In this document: piece by piece, positions 39,748-44,946 of the stretch | Layout of the letters: each line of letters begins with the position of its first letter | Numbering within the stretch: position 1 is the stretch's first letter | DNA from: Escherichia coli | GTDB taxonomy: Bacteria > Pseudomonadota > Gammaproteobacteria > Enterobacterales > Enterobacteriaceae | Strand: one strand, 5' to 3' | Assembly (NCBI RefSeq): GCF_041886205.1 | Contig: NZ_CP169029.1 | DNA: 64,000 nucleotides | Made by a program: the position numbers and the translations under genes | Notes under the pieces: model-generated | What the model was told of the DNA's origin: nothing | The model's database searches: none | The model's input: only the letters and a program-made list of their open reading frames with translations

Positions 39748-39904
39748 TCACCCCTTATTTTCACGGCGGACTTCAAGCCCAAAATACTGTTCAGGTTTAG
39801 TGAGTCACGGTCTTACCTGTCTTTGTCATCACTCTGGCCGCCATAGCAACCTTTCAGCATTCACCCTTTTGTTAAGAGTTCATTGTTTAATGGTATCAGC
39901 GATT

Positions 39905-40056
39905 AATATGGTCTGATACTGACGTGGTTCCTGTCATACTTACGGTCATGGGCGGTTATCGCCCATACTGTTCGTGCCAGCTTGTTTGCCATGGCGACGA
40001 TTGCCACACTGGCTGGACGACGTTTTTTCAGTTCGGTTATCCACGGGCCAGGCTCT
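39905..40056 (-). pseudogene. IS110-family transposase, 3' part (separated from 5' part by IS66 insertion)
   Basis: Reverse translation reads EPGPWITELKKRRPASVAIVAMANKLARTVWAITAHD..., in frame with the 289-aa fragment at 42760-43629 once IS66 and one copy of the 8-bp duplication are removed. Confidence 0.6.
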
Positions 40057-40094
40057 TTAGCTACGTAAGCGACTCGTCAGAACCGTATTGATAT

Positions 40095-41666
40095 TTACTG
40101 AGAGCTCAGATCAACTTTCCAGGGCAACAGATCGCGTACCCGGTTTGCCGGCCAGTCCTGGATATGTTCAATGACGTAACGCAGCCACTTTTCTGGCTCC
40201 ACATTGTTCAGACGGCATGTGCCGATCAGCGAGTACAACACCGCCGCATGTTCACCACCGCTGTCGGAACCCGCGAACATCCAGTTTTTCCGGCCTACGG
40301 CCACTCCCCGTAAGGCGTTCTCTGCGATGTTGTTGTCGATTTCCACCCAGCCATTACTGCAGTACACGTTCAGTGCATCCCACTGTTTCAGCAGGTATGC
40401 GAACGCTTTTGCCGTATCTGAGTGACGCGACAGTGTTTTCATCTGTTGCTGTATCCAGTCATACAGTGACTGCATCAGTGGCGCGGCTCTGGCTTTTCTT
40501 GCCGCCAGACGCTGTTCTGCTGAACAGCCCCGGACCTCTGCCTCGATGGCATACAGTTCACCGATACGCTGCAGGGCTTCCGTGGTGATGTAGGTGGACG
40601 CTCTTGCATGCACATCGTGGATTTTTCTCCGGGCATGAGCCATACACGCGGCTTCCGTTATTCTGCCGGATTCGTATAACGCCCGGTAACCACCGTAAGC
40701 ATCGGCCTGAAGCACACCGCTGTAACCGGCCAGGTGATTTTGTGGATGGATACCTTTCCGGTCCGGACTGTACGCGAACCAGACCGCCGGGGGCATCTGT
40801 GAACCGGCGTTACGGTCATCACGGACGTAGACCCACAGCCGGGCTGTCCGGGTTTTACCGCTGCCCGGCTCCTGGACCGGGACGGGGATATCATCAGCAT
40901 GGACTTTACCGGGCATCAGCACATACTGGCGCAGGACGTCATACAGCGGCTCCAGCAGTTCAGCAACAGCACCTGTCCAGCGCCCCAGTGTGGCACGGCT
41001 CAGCTCCACTCCCTGACGACGGTATATTTCTGACTGGCGGTATAACGGCAGATGGTCTGCATATTTCCCGGTGACAACATGGGCCAGAAGCCCCGCTCCG
41101 GCATAACTGCGTGCAATGGGTTTTGAAGGTACTGGTGCCTGCACGATATGGTCGCACCGGCAACAGGCCTGTTTCGGACGTTGTGTTTCGATAACCTTAA
41201 AGGCGCTGCTGATAAGCTCCAGTTGCTCTGACACATCACATCCCAGAGAACTGAGTTCACCACCACAGGCAGGACAGCATTCCTCTTCCGGCCGGATAAC
41301 CCGGGTTTCACGGGGAAGTGAGGCCGGTAACGGTTTACGGGCTGAAGACTGGCGCAGGGCGGATGGCAGTACCGGGTCATATTGCTCACCCAGCGTTTCC
41401 GCCATTTCTTCCTGAAGTGCGCTGATTCGCTCCTGTGCTTCCTGTATCTGCCGTTCGGTTTTTGCACGAAGTTTTTCTGAGCTTTTACCGAACTGCATAC
41501 GTTGCAGTTTCGCAACCAGCGCCTTCAGCCGGTTGATTTCGGAAGCATAAGCCGCCACCCGCTGTGAGAGCAGGCGGTTGTATTCAGCCATCTGGCGGAT
41601 GGTGTCCTGTTGCGTCTGCAACAGTGCCCGCAGGCGGGCGTTCTCATGAGCAAGTGAGGTGTCCAT
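40095..41666 (-). CDS. IS66-family transposase (TnpC/orf3)
   Basis: 523 aa with N-terminal coiled-coil/leucine zipper, Cys-rich zinc-binding segment and DDE region. Confidence 0.9.
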
Positions 41667-41685
41667 ATCCTCACTTTACAACGGG

Positions 41686-42033
41686 TTATATGCGGATTCC
41701 AGCGCGTTCCGTTCGTTTCGGGTGCTTCCAGTTGATACCTTCAAGAAGCATGGATAACTGAGCCGGAGTAAGGTGCACCTTGCCGTCACGGGTGACTGGC
41801 CAGACGAAGCGGCCCCGCTCCAGGCGTTTGGTGAAGAGGCACAGTCCGTCACTGTCAGCCCACAACACTTTTATCTGGTCACCCCGGCGTCCGCGGAAGA
41901 TGAACAGGTGTCCGGAGAACGGGTCATCCTTCAGGACGTTCTGAACTTTTGATGCCAGGCCGTTAAAGCCATTTCGCATATCGGTGATACCTGCAACCAG
42001 CCAGATACGCGAACCTGCAGGGAGAGATATCAT
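41686..42033 (-). CDS. IS66 Orf2 (TnpB-like accessory protein)
   Basis: 115 aa MISLPAGSRIWLVAGITDMRNGFNGLASKVQNVLKDDPFSGHLFIFRGRRGD... Confidence 0.9.
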   Translation of the reverse strand: MISLPAGSRIWLVAGITDMRNGFNGLASKVQNVLKDDPFSGHLFIFRGRRGDQIKVLWADSDGLCLFTKRLERGRFVWPVTRDGKVHLTPAQLSMLLEGINWKHPKRTERAGIRI

Positions 42034-42710: not shown

Positions 42711-42759
42711 TATTTTTGTAGAGCCGGAGGAAACAGACCAGACGGTTTAAATGAGCCGG

Positions 42760-43629
42760 TTACTTAGCTACTAATGCCACCGCTCTTGCACCGTGGATAA
42801 ATAATGTCCTGAGATAAGTGTCACCACGTTTGCTTATCCCCAGCAGACGTACTTTCCCTCCGGAGCCAGTTTGTTTTGGAACCAGACCAACATATGCGGC
42901 GAACTCTCGCCCCGATTTAAACGCTGATGCTTCCCCCATGGTGGCCACCGCTGCCGTCGCAATAAGTGGTCCAACGCCAGGAATATCCAGCAACCGCTTA
43001 CAGGTTTCATTCTGCCTCGCCACGCTGGTAAGCTGTTTTTCAATATCCTCTATCAGTGAGTCCAGCTCATTCAGTCGGTTGTACTGGTTTTCCAGAACCA
43101 TAATGAGATACGGTGGCAGTCTCTCTTTCATCCGTTCCAGTGCTTCGGGGAACTCCCGCTCCATCGCTGCCCGGCCTTTGTGGATGGTTTCACCAAACTC
43201 CAGTAACGTCCCGTGCAGGGCATTAATTTGTGCGGTCCGGAACTTCACCAGTTGCATGCGGGTACGGTGCAGAACCAGTACCGACTGCTGTTCTTCTGTT
43301 TTTACGGCGATTTCTTTACCCGGCTGCTGAACCGCCATCCAGATAGCCCGGGCATCCATCACATCATTCTTATTGCCCATGACGAATGCCTTAACGAAGC
43401 GGGCCTGCAACAACCGGACTTTATGACCAAGTTTTGTCAGTTCCCGTGCCCAGTGCTGAGAACCTCCACAGGCCTCCATACCAATCAGGCATGGCTCACG
43501 GTTGCCGAAGAACATCAGAAAATCCTGTCTACGCAACTGTTTATCAACCACTTCACCTGTGTGCTCATTGATGAAGTGAATCTGAATGACATGTTTTGCG
43601 ATATCAACGCCAACCGGTGTATATTTCAT
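42760..43629 (-). pseudogene. IS110-family transposase, 5' part (disrupted by IS66)
   Basis: 289-aa ORF with DEDD-type N-terminus (MKYTPVGVDIAKHVIQIHF...) and DIPGVGPLIATAAVATMGE motif; reading frame terminates inside the IS66 junction. Confidence 0.8.
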
Positions 43630-43771
43630 TTGTGGAGTCTCCAGTCTGAGGGAGCTTTATGCATCCCGTATTGGGCACTATGATGCCGGAAATCTGCGAG
43701 GCTCCACACCTGCCAGTTTCACCCTTTTAACCATCATACTGCTCCGTGTTTAATTGTGTGGGATGCGTTCA

Positions 43772-43942
43772 TTACATTTTCACCATTTTGCCACTGCGGC
43801 CCCGGAAGACGAAGATATGCCCGGAGAACGGGTCATCTTTCAGCGTGTTCTGCACCTTCGAAGCCAGGCCGTTGAAGCCACAACGCATATCTGTGATGCC
43901 AGCGATGATCCAGATTCTGGTACCGGTCGGCAGCGTTATCAT
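43772..43942 (-). pseudogene. IS66 Orf2 remnant (truncated)
   Basis: Reverse translation MITLPTGTRIWIIAGITDMRCGFNGLASKVQNTLKDDPFSGHIFVFRGRSG then stop; rest of element replaced by the IS110-family element. Confidence 0.6.
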
Positions 43943-44613
43943 CGGATACCCCCTTTCATTTCGCGAATGAGCACCCTAAGAAGCTCCGGAGTAAGGGGGG
44001 CAAACAGTTTTACCACACCTGATTTAAGATGCAGCTCACACTGTGGTGAGTCTACGGTAGTGTCATTCTGGCTTTCATCAGACTTGTTTCGCCAGAAAGG
44101 ATTTGTCACCGGTTTGACAGGGTCAGGAGTCTCAGTGATTGCTACCGGAACGGCCTGACATTCTTGGAGATCCTCATCATACAGTAAGCCCTCTTCATAC
44201 AGTCTTTTCCAGTTAAACAACAGATTGTCATTAATATTGTGCTCTCTGGCGATCCGTGCAACGACTGTACCAGGCTGTAATGCCTGTTTTACCAGCCTGA
44301 TTTTAAATTCACGACTGTAGGAGGTTCGTCGTTCTTTTCGCCATGTGCTTTCGCTGATTTGAGGCTCGGTTAATACCTTCTTTCTGTTGGCATAAAGTAT
44401 GGCATCAAGTTGGGCGACTGAAAGTGATTCAGGTAATGGCCAGGTAATACCGGAGGCATTAAATCGTTGAAAGAGATTATGAATAGTGGAATGACTGAGA
44501 CCTAACTGCAGGGCGATAGCCCGGACAGATAATTGCTCGTCGAATCTTAGACGTAATGCGTCTGGCAAATAAGAGCGAAAGCCGGTGATATCTTTTGTTG
44601 TCTGAGAATTCAT
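43939..44613 (-). CDS. IS66-family Orf1 of a second, truncated IS66 copy
   Basis: Start taken at MNSQTTKDITGFRSYLPD...; homologous to Orf1 at 42033-42710. Confidence 0.7.
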   Translation of the reverse strand: MNSQTTKDITGFRSYLPDALRLRFDEQLSVRAIALQLGLSHSTIHNLFQRFNASGITWPLPESLSVAQLDAILYANRKKVLTEPQISESTWRKERRTSYSREFKIRLVKQALQPGTVVARIAREHNINDNLLFNWKRLYEEGLLYDEDLQECQAVPVAITETPDPVKPVTNPFWRNKSDESQNDTTVDSPQCELHLKSGVVKLFAPLTPELLRVLIREMKGGIR

Positions 44614-44946
44614 CGTTCGTGTCCATCTATATAGATGGACGCGATTGTTGCCAGACAGGACAACCATCACAAAACGTCACAGACGGAGCCTTACATCTCA
44701 GCTGTAGCACACGCAGGATCAATTCCGGATTATCTGCCAGTACCGCCTTTCGTGCATTCATCTTAAATGTCCTTTTACTGCGAAAATGGACATTAGTATC
44801 GGAAACAGGAAAGGGAGGCGAAAGACGGTTTAAATGATGCGCTTACTGTTGTCTGGGAATTCATCGTTTGTGTCCATCAATATAGTTGGGCACGATTGTT
44901 GCCAGACAGGACAATTTTCACAAGACGTCGCAGATGGGGCGCTTAC
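44596..44946. repeat. Tandem IS66-family left-end fragments with about 100-bp direct repeat
   Basis: 44596-44700 and 44847-44946 are near-identical (TGTTGTCTG.GAATTCATCGTT.GTGTCCATC...GTTGCCAGACAGGACAA...), each ending in an IS66-type terminus; intervening 44701-44846 ends GACGGTTTAAATGATGCGCTTAC like the IS66 end at 42741-42763. Confidence 0.5.

What the first reader, a model, noticed from the sequence alone, without database searches (positions are those of the whole stretch)
39790..44946. Nested IS66 / IS110 / IS66 insertions with intact 8-bp target-site duplication
A complete IS66-family element (40065-42763) is flanked by identical TTAGCTAC at 40057-40064 and 42764-42771 and splits an IS110-family transposase gene; removing the IS and one duplication copy restores a continuous frame (...ARAVALVAK|EPGPWITELKKRRPASVAIVAMANKLARTVWA...). 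The IS110-family element itself truncates a second IS66 copy, whose left-end region is followed by two further IS66-type terminal fragments. This records at least three sequential transposition events at one site.
Basis: seen in the sequence. Interest (0 to 1): 0.45.

Follow-up and report, generated by a model that had tools for sequence, protein, structure and literature searches.

The report
Nested insertion sequences around RNA-guided ISEc11
This is a real but ordinary pile-up of known E. coli jumping genes: ISCro1 sits inside the RNA-guided element ISEc11, which sits in its usual 12-bp target inside another IS66-type element, and ISEc11's far end abuts a look-alike target in a toxin gene, marking a roughly 14-kb deletion.

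Summary
A 2,699-bp ISCro1 (IS66 family, 40065-42763) is flanked by TTAGCTAC on both sides. Removing it restores a 339-aa transposase, and sibling strain ZYB39 carries the natural empty site.

The interpretation needs correcting in four ways:
- The interrupted element is ISEc11, a characterised 1,443-bp seekRNA-guided IS1111-family element. It spans 39630-43779, not 39790 onwards; 39790 lies inside its seekRNA guide.
- ISEc11 did not truncate the second IS66 copy. It sits in its canonical target GTGAAAATACTG inside that copy's tnpB, and strains C10, JML285 and ZYB39 keep both tnpB halves.
- In the window, ISEc11's right end instead joins the last 54 codons of a cdiA-CT (TNT toxin) gene. The join is at GAAAAATACTATG, a near-cognate target and the only AAATACT in a 12-kb cdiBAI proxy. 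In ZYB39, cdiB-cdiA lie directly downstream, so about 13-15 kb were probably lost while the immunity gene stayed.
- The two terminal fragments (44696-44846, 44847-44946) are real.

At least five nested insertions and one deletion are recorded. All the elements are known. Interest is low to moderate, and rests on a natural off-target event of an RNA-guided recombinase.

The parts
40065..42763 (-). Complete ISCro1-like IS66-family element (2,699 bp): tnpC 40095-41666, tnpB 41686-42033, tnpA 42033-42710, with imperfect terminal inverted repeats GTAAGCGACTC / GTAACCGGCTC.
   Evidence: ORFs. Ends. NCBIfam hits to IS66 TnpA, TnpB and transposase, all above cut-off. PGAP names it 'ISCro1 family' in ZYB62. 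An identical copy with another 8-bp duplication is in L003.
40057..40064 (.). Left copy of the 8-bp target-site duplication TTAGCTAC made by ISCro1.
   Evidence: A single copy is present at the empty site in ZYB39.
42764..42771 (.). Right copy of the 8-bp target-site duplication TTAGCTAC.
42764..43779 (-). ISEc11 5' segment (element nt 1-1016): left end AAATGTA plus the 13-bp subterminal inverted repeat ATGAACGCATCCC (43760-43772), and transposase codons 1-289 (start codon at 43629).
   Evidence: Element features are as described in PMC11187229.
39630..40064 (-). ISEc11 3' segment (element nt 1009-1443; nt 1009-1016 are duplicated). It holds the last 50 transposase codons (through the stop, which ends at 39903), the 273-nt 3' non-coding region (39630-39902) and the right subterminal inverted repeat (39633-45).
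   Evidence: The restored element is 1,443 bp with 0 mismatches to the C10 copy. Pfam DEDD_Tnp_IS110 and Transposase_20 hits. NF033542 at 336 bits.
39756..39790 (-). seekRNA target-guide segments. ACAGTATTTT (39781-39790, element nt 1283-1292) is antisense to the target top strand AAAATACTGT. GTGAAAATA (39756-39764, nt 1309-1317) is identical to the target top strand.
   Evidence: The predicted fold places both segments in an internal loop around a short hairpin. Natural variants with the guide change C->G sit at ACTCTG targets.
43780..44695 (-). 5' remnant of a second IS66-family element ('IS66#2'). Its left inverted repeat GTAAGGCTCCG ends at 44695. It holds tnpA (43939-44613) and the first 54 codons of tnpB (43780-43942), which end in the left half of the ISEc11 target (GGTGA).
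   Evidence: An intact tnpB with the unoccupied target is in O157:H7. The complete IS66#2 in C10 has the 8-bp duplication ATCTCAGC on both sides.
44696..44846 (-). Fragment E3: the left inverted repeat (GTAAGCGCATCATTTAAACC) and first 22 tnpA codons of a third, different IS66-family element, cut by the IS66#2 insertion.
   Evidence: The rest of this tnpA continues beyond IS66#2 in C10 and JML285.
44847..44946 (-). Fragment E4: the first 100 bp of a fourth IS66-family element, 86% identical to the IS66#2 left end, cut by the E3 insertion.
39624..39630 (-). Junction heptamer AAATACT. It is shared by the right half of the ISEc11 target and by the cdiA-CT gene, so the crossover lies within it.
   Evidence: It is the only AAATACT on either strand of a 12-kb cdiB-cdiA-cdiI proxy.
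39466..39630 (-). Last 54 codons of a cdiA-CT toxin gene (TNT domain); the rest of cdiA is missing.
   Evidence: Homology to intact cdiA genes stops at 39630. The TNT domain covers residues 209-298 of the intact C-terminal region.
39048..39464 (-). Intact cognate immunity gene (Imm63 family cdiI).
   Evidence: Pfam Imm63, E = 2.5e-29. PGAP annotation in ZYB62.

Best explanation
The region is a stack of known mobile elements laid down in order inside a serX-linked genomic island of E. coli.

1. An IS66-type element (E4) was hit 100 bp from its left end by a different IS66-type element (E3).
2. E3 was hit 151 bp from its left end by a third element, IS66#2, which made the 8-bp duplication ATCTCAGC.
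3. ISEc11, an IS1111-family element, then inserted into IS66#2's tnpB. Its DEDD transposase is directed by a seekRNA made from its own 3' non-coding region. The insertion was at the element's cognate 12-bp target GTGAAAATACTG and made no duplication.
4. ISEc11's right end became joined to a near-cognate site (GAAAAATACTATG) in the same orientation inside the toxin-coding end of cdiA. This removed about 13-15 kb: the tnpB 3' part, tnpC, cdiB and nearly all of cdiA. The Imm63 immunity gene was left intact. There are two most likely routes. Either an off-target ISEc11 insertion into that site was followed by homologous recombination between the two direct copies, or the transposase recombined the right-end junction directly with that site.
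5. ISCro1 inserted into the ISEc11 transposase gene at codon 289 and made the TTAGCTAC duplication. This cut off the last 50 residues and probably inactivated the element. Both ends and the seekRNA region remain intact.

Steps 1-3 and 5 are shown by the sequence and by sibling genomes. Step 4 is shown as a junction, but its mechanism is inferred, as is the order of steps 4 and 5.
For: ISCro1 insertion: duplication, restored ORF and natural empty site, plus an identical copy elsewhere with another 8-bp duplication.

ISEc11 identity: 1,443 bp with 0 mismatches to the C10 copy; 13-bp subterminal repeats; DEDD_Tnp_IS110 and Transposase_20 domains; a 273-nt 3' non-coding region with segments complementary to both target strands. 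The published properties are a 1,443-bp element, the target GTGAAAATACTG, an essential 3' non-coding region, a seekRNA and no duplication (PMC11187229).

Canonical insertion: both tnpB halves flank the intact ISEc11 at the same uhpC-linked locus in C10, JML285 and ZYB39. The unoccupied target GGTGAAAATACTGTGG is in an O157:H7 tnpB. IS66#2's duplication is on both sides in C10.

Deletion:
- Homology to tnpB stops, and homology to intact cdiA starts, within AAATACT at 39624-39630.
- Intact cdiA reads GCTGAAAAATACTATG.
- That heptamer is unique in a 12-kb cdiBAI proxy.
- ZYB39 has cdiB-cdiA in the same orientation about 2.7 kb downstream of ISEc11's right end.
- A 99.93%-identical ISEc11 with the same guide is fully inserted at AAGAAAAT|AAATACTATGG in a metagenome contig. 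This shows that the same G->A mismatch is tolerated.
- The length of the A-run at the junction varies among natural copies.

The junction allele is present in ZYB62 and in 12 short-read contigs.
Against: No genome with ISEc11's left end joined to the upstream half of the cdiA site was found. The search covered 5,426 complete E. coli genomes and JGI metagenomes, so the proposed second copy is hypothetical.

The direct ancestor, with a TNT-type cdiA next to IS66#2, was not found. ZYB39's cdiA carries a different toxin end, and the TNT-type cdiBAI loci examined lie at thrW.

The left half of the cdiA site matches the second guide only 6 of 9 because of an extra A.

A 7-bp identity is also what a microhomology deletion would leave.

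Every contig that carries the junction and reaches the site also carries ISCro1, so the order of steps 4 and 5 is unknown.

Loss of transposase activity after removal of 50 residues is inferred, not tested.
Confidence: 0.8

Rival explanations
1. The join between ISEc11's right end and cdiA is an IS-independent deletion. Replication slippage or illegitimate recombination between two 7-bp direct repeats (AAATACT) about 14 kb apart happened to use the copy that abuts ISEc11.
For: Exactly 7 bp are shared at the crossover. No second ISEc11 copy or reciprocal product was found. The left half-site matches the guide poorly.
Against: By rough estimate, 7-mer repeat pairs shared between the IS66#2 3' part and a roughly 14-kb neighbour would number in the thousands. 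Use of the one pair that sits exactly at the IS-target boundary, and that is also the sequence read by the seekRNA guide, is unlikely unless the element is involved. A bona fide ISEc11 uses an ACTATG site elsewhere. The cdiA site lies in the orientation required for a direct-repeat deletion.
Confidence: 0.15
2. One reading: insertion of the IS110-family element itself removed the rest of the second IS66 copy, and the element ends near 39790.
For: In the window alone, only the 5' part of IS66#2 is present next to the element.
Against: In C10, JML285 and ZYB39 the same ISEc11 at the same locus is flanked by both halves of tnpB, and the target is restored exactly on removal. The element is 1,443 bp and ends at 39630, and 39790 lies inside its non-coding region. 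Published work reports neither loss nor duplication of target bases.
Confidence: 0.03
3. Assembly artefact: repeated IS copies were mis-joined, which created false nesting.
For: The region is dense in related IS66 sequences.
Against: The same structure is in the independent complete genome ZYB62. That strain differs from the window elsewhere, for example by an extra ISEc23. Several short-read contigs span the cdiA/ISEc11/ISCro1 junctions with 100% identity. The clean 8-bp duplications, the exact empty site and the exact frame restoration are not what mis-joins produce.
Confidence: 0.02

Closest known systems
ISEc11 (IS1111 family; Prosseda et al. 2006; Siddiquee et al. 2024, PMC11187229)
   Same: After ISCro1 is removed, the element is 1,443 bp and identical to copies in other E. 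coli. It has the same 13-bp subterminal repeats, the same 339-aa DEDD transposase, the same 3' non-coding region with both target-matching segments, and the left flank of the published target GTGAAAATACTG.
   Different: This copy is split by ISCro1. Its right flank is not the cognate target but a near-cognate site in cdiA-CT. The main text of the seekRNA paper does not mention IS66 (0 occurrences), although most sampled natural copies lie in IS66 tnpB. The 2006 paper could not be read here.
ISCro1 (IS66 family; first catalogued in Citrobacter rodentium ICC168, PMC3072379)
   Same: It has the tnpA-tnpB-tnpC layout, GTAA-type imperfect inverted repeats and an 8-bp duplication. PGAP assigns the transposase to the ISCro1 family.
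   Different: Nothing notable. It is an apparently intact copy, identical to one in another E. coli genome. The ISfinder reference sequence could not be compared here.
IS621 and other IS110-family bridge-RNA recombinases (Durrant et al. 2024; from my own knowledge)
   Same: An RNA encoded in the element's non-coding end pairs with both strands of the target. In engineered systems, the recombinase can produce insertion, excision or inversion, depending on how the sites are arranged.
   Different: In ISEc11 the guide RNA is downstream of the gene, and the element has subterminal repeats, which are IS1111-type features. Whether it can recombine a resident end with a site in cis is untested.
IS4321/IS5075 (IS1111 family), which target the inverted repeats of Tn21-type transposons (from my own knowledge)
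   Same: An IS1111-family element whose preferred target lies inside another mobile element.
   Different: Here the target is a coding sequence (codons V-K-I-L of IS66 TnpB) rather than a terminal repeat. It is also used outside IS66: in gspB, apparently flhB, and other sites.
cdiBAI loci with orphan cdiA-CT/cdiI arrays, EC869 type (from my own knowledge and PGAP annotation)
   Same: A toxin-end remnant is followed by its immunity gene and by further orphan modules.
   Different: The remnant here was not made by the usual displacement of toxin ends. It was made by a deletion anchored at an IS end.

Membership tests
IS66 family (element 40065-42763, ISCro1-like) | Three consecutive genes: tnpA, tnpB and a DDE transposase, tnpC. 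| tested here: met
   ORFs of 225, 115 and 523 aa. NF038385 at 296 bits, NF033819 at 129 bits and NF033517 at 478 bits, all above their cut-offs.
IS66 family (element 40065-42763, ISCro1-like) | Imperfect terminal inverted repeats that begin GTAA. | tested here: met
   GTAAGCGACTCGTCAGAACCG against GTAACCGGCTCATTTAAACCG.
IS66 family (element 40065-42763, ISCro1-like) | An 8-bp target-site duplication. | tested here: met
   TTAGCTAC twice, a single copy at the empty site in ZYB39, and the same element with GAAAATCC in L003.
IS1111 family / ISEc11 | A DEDD (RuvC-like) transposase with a C-terminal Transposase_20 domain. | tested here: met
   Restored 339-aa ORF: PF01548 and PF02371; NF033542 at 336.6 bits against a cut-off of 140.
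IS1111 family / ISEc11 | Subterminal inverted repeats of 11-13 bp with short asymmetric extensions (7 bp on the left, 3 bp on the right). | tested here: met
   ATGAACGCATCCC at 43760-72 and its complement at 39633-45. The extensions are AAATGTA and ATA. Total length is 1,443 bp (criteria).
IS1111 family / ISEc11 | [quoted passage not shown] | tested here: met
   A 273-nt region with ACAGTATTTT at nt 1283-1292, then GTGAAAATA at nt 1309-1317. Guide and target covary in natural variants.
IS1111 family / ISEc11 | Insertion at the cognate target GTGAAAATACTG without duplication. | tested here: inconclusive
   The left flank GGTGA/AAAT is cognate. Sibling strains show the full cognate site. In the window the right flank is AAATACTATG from cdiA, which is near-cognate.
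IS1111 family / ISEc11 | The seekRNA is produced, binds the transposase and is required for movement. | not testable with these tools
   Shown experimentally for ISEc11 in PMC11187229. Rfam 15 has no matching family in this region.
CDI toxin/immunity module (cdiA-CT / cdiI) | A C-terminal toxin domain of CdiA followed by a cognate immunity gene. | tested here: met
   The intact homologue has a TNT domain (PF14021, E = 3.7e-30). The window keeps only the last 54 codons. The immunity gene is Imm63 (PF15599, E = 2.5e-29).

The most novel reading that the evidence does not exclude
ISEc11's seekRNA-guided transposase itself produced the roughly 14-kb deletion in cis. It would have recombined the element's resident right-end junction directly with a near-cognate half-site in cdiA, one that matches mainly the top-strand guide, with no second IS copy involved. 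That would be a natural example of RNA-guided, target-directed genome deletion by an IS1111-family recombinase. It would imply that a good match to one guide is enough for such events.
Probability: 0.25. Interest if true: 0.55.

Novelty: already known. Interest (0 to 1): 0.28.

Why it matters
The finding as submitted is routine mobile-element archaeology in an E. coli genomic island.

Three points add some value:
- The apparent random nesting is partly programmed. ISEc11 is RNA-guided, and its preferred natural target lies in the tnpB gene of one group of IS66 elements, so it acts largely as a parasite of another IS.
- The right-end junction is a natural record of ISEc11 acting at, or next to, a near-cognate site. 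The cost was a whole contact-dependent inhibition toxin system, while the immunity gene survived. This bears on off-target behaviour of seekRNA and bridge-RNA recombinases, which are being developed as genome-editing tools.
- The guide/target covariation seen in natural variants (guide C->G with target ACTGTG->ACTCTG) independently supports the published guide assignment.

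Tried and rejected
- Rfam 15 scan of 39000-45500 at E <= 1: no hit, so no curated family covers the seekRNA.
- Thermodynamic folding of the non-coding region: the guides sit in an internal loop, as published, but the stability z-score of -1.2 is not significant, so it was not used as evidence.
- Scan of 100,044 species-representative genomes for the ISEc11 right end: 71 loci, all relatives with other targets and none ISEc11 proper. It was therefore uninformative for target usage.
- Search for the predicted second copy (cdiA upstream half joined to ISEc11's left end): none in 5,426 complete E. 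coli genomes and none in JGI metagenomes.
- Look-up of the chimeric 58-aa ORF across the right-end/cdiA junction, to find an intermediate without ISCro1: 12 contigs, and every one that reaches the site also has ISCro1.
- Search for a direct ancestor with a TNT-type cdiA next to IS66#2: the TNT-type cdiBAI loci examined sit at thrW, and JML285 has no cdi genes nearby.
- Generic edit-distance scoring of the 12-mer target over the cdiBAI proxy did not discriminate (41 sites within 3 edits). Contiguous pairing next to the crossover was used instead.
- Prosseda et al. 2006 (PMC1483014) is not held, so I could not check whether the IS66 tnpB location of the target was noted there.
- I first assumed the window was ZYB62 and carried an ISEc23 at 35.7-38.1 kb. 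This was wrong: the window has the empty site.

Full report
**1. Observation**

The 8-mer TTAGCTAC lies at 40057-40064 and 42764-42771 and nowhere else on either strand of the window. The 2,699 bp between the two copies begin GTAAGCGACTC and end GAGCCGGTTAC. They carry three intact minus-strand genes of 225, 115 and 523 aa. These genes score as IS66 TnpA, TnpB and transposase, all above NCBIfam cut-offs.

**2. Natural controls**

A megablast against 5,426 complete E. coli genomes found the whole 5.4-kb structure in ZYB62. PGAP there labels the pieces 'ISCro1 family' and 'ISEc11 family'.

- The window is not ZYB62. It lacks an ISEc23 that ZYB62 carries with the duplication GGAGATTT, and it differs further upstream. 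The structure therefore exists in at least two independent assemblies. It also appears in 12 short-read contigs.
- Strain ZYB39 matches window 42764-63782 at 99.986%.
- An identical ISCro1 (0 mismatches in 2,699 bp) sits in another genome inside an 87%-related element, with the duplication GAAAATCC. This confirms its ends independently.

**3. What the interrupted element is**

With ISCro1 removed, the element is 1,443 bp and identical to the copy in strain C10. Its features are:
- 13-bp subterminal inverted repeats (ATGAACGCATCCC) at 43760-43772 and 39633-39645;
- a transposase with DEDD_Tnp_IS110 and Transposase_20 domains;
- a 273-nt non-coding region downstream of the gene.

This is ISEc11, one of the experimental models of the seekRNA paper (PMC11187229). 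That paper reports a 1,443-bp element with the target GTGAAAATACTG. Its 3' non-coding region is essential, an 82-nt seekRNA co-purifies with the transposase, and no target duplication is made.

I located the two guide segments. ACAGTATTTT (element nt 1283-1292, window 39790-39781) is antisense to AAAATACTGT. GTGAAAATA (nt 1309-1317, window 39764-39756) is identical to the target's left part.

The element's true span is 39630-43779. Rfam has no family for this RNA.

**4. Relation to the second IS66 copy**

Read in ISEc11's orientation, the left flank is ...GGCAAAATGGTGA|AAATGTAATG.... That is codon 54 of an IS66 tnpB, ending in the left half of the target.
- In C10, JML285 and ZYB39 the same ISEc11 sits at the same uhpC-linked locus. 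The rest of tnpB and tnpC lie on its other side.
- An O157:H7 copy of this tnpB shows the unoccupied site GGTGAAAATACTGTGG.
- In C10 the complete IS66#2 (2,752 bp without ISEc11) has ATCTCAGC on both sides, and it interrupts the tnpA of another IS66 element.

ISEc11 therefore did not truncate IS66#2. It inserted cleanly at its cognate target.

Among the contexts returned for the exact transposase sequence, about three quarters (15 of the 20 contexts I could tally) were IS66 tnpB. The others were apparently flhB, an island next to dsbD, and a yhfS-MBL intergenic site, and one further copy lies in gspB. ISCro1's own tnpB lacks the target.

**5.

In the window the right end reads ...GGGATGCGTTCATAT AAATACT ATGAATATGAGG.... 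In the siblings it reads ...AAATACT GTGGGCCGATCG....

Left of 39630 the window matches the 3' end of cdiA genes, and that homology runs exactly up to 39630. Intact cdiA reads AAAGCTGAAAAATACTATGAATATGAGG. The toxin end is a TNT domain, of which only the last 54 codons remain. The Imm63 immunity gene (39048-39464) is intact.

How the cdiA site compares with the target:
- It matches the top-strand guide over 8 contiguous nt, AAAATACT.
- Its left half carries an extra A, so it matches the second guide 6 of 9.
- AAATACT occurs only once on either strand of a 12-kb cdiB-cdiA-cdiI proxy, and that occurrence is the site used.

In ZYB39, cdiB and cdiA lie about 2.7 kb downstream of ISEc11's right end, in the same orientation, followed by an orphan toxin/immunity array. 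The simplest history is therefore a deletion of about 13-15 kb running from ISEc11's right end to this site.

**6. Is ISEc11 responsible for the deletion?**

Evidence for:
- The breakpoint coincides to the base with the IS-target boundary and with the sequence the guide reads.
- By rough estimate, thousands of other 7-bp repeat pairs were available.
- A 99.93%-identical ISEc11 with the same guide is fully inserted at AAGAAAAT|AAATACTATGG in a metagenome contig. This shows that the same G->A mismatch is tolerated.
- The A-run at the junction varies among natural copies (AAAT or AAAAT at one locus), so an extra A is not disqualifying.
- Variants whose guide has C->G sit at ACTCTG. This confirms which guide base reads that position.

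Evidence against:
- No copy with cdiA's upstream half joined to ISEc11's left end exists in the E. coli set or in JGI metagenomes.
- The direct ancestor was not found.

I put about 0.75-0.8 on an ISEc11-linked origin. That splits between off-target insertion followed by homologous recombination of two direct copies (more likely) and direct recombination of the resident right end with the site (about 0.25). I put about 0.15 on an IS-independent microhomology deletion.

**7. The remaining fragments**

- 44696-44846 holds an IS66-type left repeat (GTAAGCGCATCATTTAAACC) plus 22 codons of a different tnpA. That tnpA continues on the far side of IS66#2 in C10 and JML285.
- 44847-44946 is the first 100 bp of an element 86% identical to the IS66#2 left end.

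The record is therefore E4 <- E3 <- IS66#2 <- ISEc11 <- ISCro1, plus one deletion. Every contig that carries the cdiA junction and reaches the site also carries ISCro1, so the order of the last two events cannot be read off. If the event needed transposase from this copy, it came before ISCro1. That is inference.

**8. Consequences (inferred)**

- ISCro1 removes the last 50 residues of the transposase, so this ISEc11 is probably dead as an autonomous element. It keeps both ends and the seekRNA region.
- Because ISEc11 can carry cargo and can be complemented in trans, the 4.15-kb composite might still be mobilisable. Its altered right flank may hinder circle formation, since flank changes blocked circle formation in the published assays.
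- The strain has lost CDI toxin delivery at this locus but keeps immunity.

**9. Comparison and verdict**

Every element is a known one, and two are identical to copies elsewhere. The family tests I could run were all met, except that the window's right flank is near-cognate rather than cognate. The finding is real and well explained. As submitted it is ordinary. The only mildly new points are the off-target junction of an RNA-guided IS and the observation that its main natural target lies in IS66 tnpB. The seekRNA paper's main text does not mention IS66, and the 2006 description could not be read.

Noticed in passing
window 38160-38167: The window has the unoccupied site (single GGAGATTT) where ZYB62 carries a 2.5-kb ISEc23 (IS66 family) flanked by GGAGATTT on both sides. 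So the window strain and ZYB62 are distinct, and IS66-family elements are still moving in this lineage.
   Followed up: yes
window 31934-33654: The darT-darG toxin-antitoxin pair (DNA ADP-ribosyltransferase and glycohydrolase) sits between hsdS (30572-31921) and hsdR (33673-36768) of a type I restriction-modification operon. This is a defence-island arrangement. The gene names come from the ZYB62 annotation, at 100% identity.
   Followed up: partly
window 38274-38921: Two small minus-strand ORFs lie downstream of the Imm63 gene. The DNA just upstream of and overlapping the start of the 38610-38921 ORF (window 38900-39012) matches genes annotated as 'DNA/RNA non-specific endonuclease' or VENN pre-toxin proteins elsewhere, so this looks like an orphan CdiA-CT fragment with a probable immunity gene at 38274-38609. 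Neither ORF has an NCBIfam hit.
   Followed up: partly
L011-L081 (GTDB genome contigs): Relatives that share ISEc11's right subterminal repeat occur in Photorhabdus, Xenorhabdus, Serratia, Providencia and Brenneria. Many have right flanks of the form AG(G)nnnnATG in front of many different genes, as if they target the ribosome-binding-site/start-codon region. Others sit at AGTGACCATAGATTT or AGAGCATAAAATCTGTGGGG.
   Followed up: no
L065 (Edwardsiella anguillarum), right flank: A relative with the same right end is inserted inside an IS66 transposase gene; the flank translates to ...LNEYCRNGWVEID. This may be a second IS1111-type lineage whose target lies in an IS66-family gene.
   Followed up: no
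L097, L102, L111, L126 (metagenome contigs): ISEc11 variants (95-98% identical) have the guide AGAGTATTTT instead of ACAGTATTTT and sit at ...AAATACTCTGG or AAATGCTCTGGGCC targets. This is a natural one-base retargeting with matching guide/target covariation. L097's flank looks like a variant IS66 tnpB.
   Followed up: partly
L087 vs L095; L110 vs L098/L103/L121/L124: Copies of ISEc11 at the same locus differ by one A at the right-end junction (AAAT against AAAAT). The crossover inside the A-run is therefore not fixed, or the run slips afterwards.
   Followed up: no
window 44596-44946 and L002/L006: The three IS66-family elements E4, E3 and IS66#2 are nested in the same orientation, each inserted only 100-151 bp from the left end of the previous one. 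This may be chance, or it may reflect a preference of IS66 elements for that region.
   Followed up: no
L096 and 24 other metagenome loci: A more distant relative with the same right end (about 77% identical over the last 200 bp) is found 25 times, with the constant right flank AAACAACATGGAGCAGC.
   Followed up: no
L143 (GCA_002225885.1), contig end: In one draft genome with the same cdiA/ISEc11 junction, the contig ends in 127 nt of an inverted ISCro1 end, located a few tens of bp beyond window position 38000. This suggests a further ISCro1 copy nearby in that strain.
   Followed up: no
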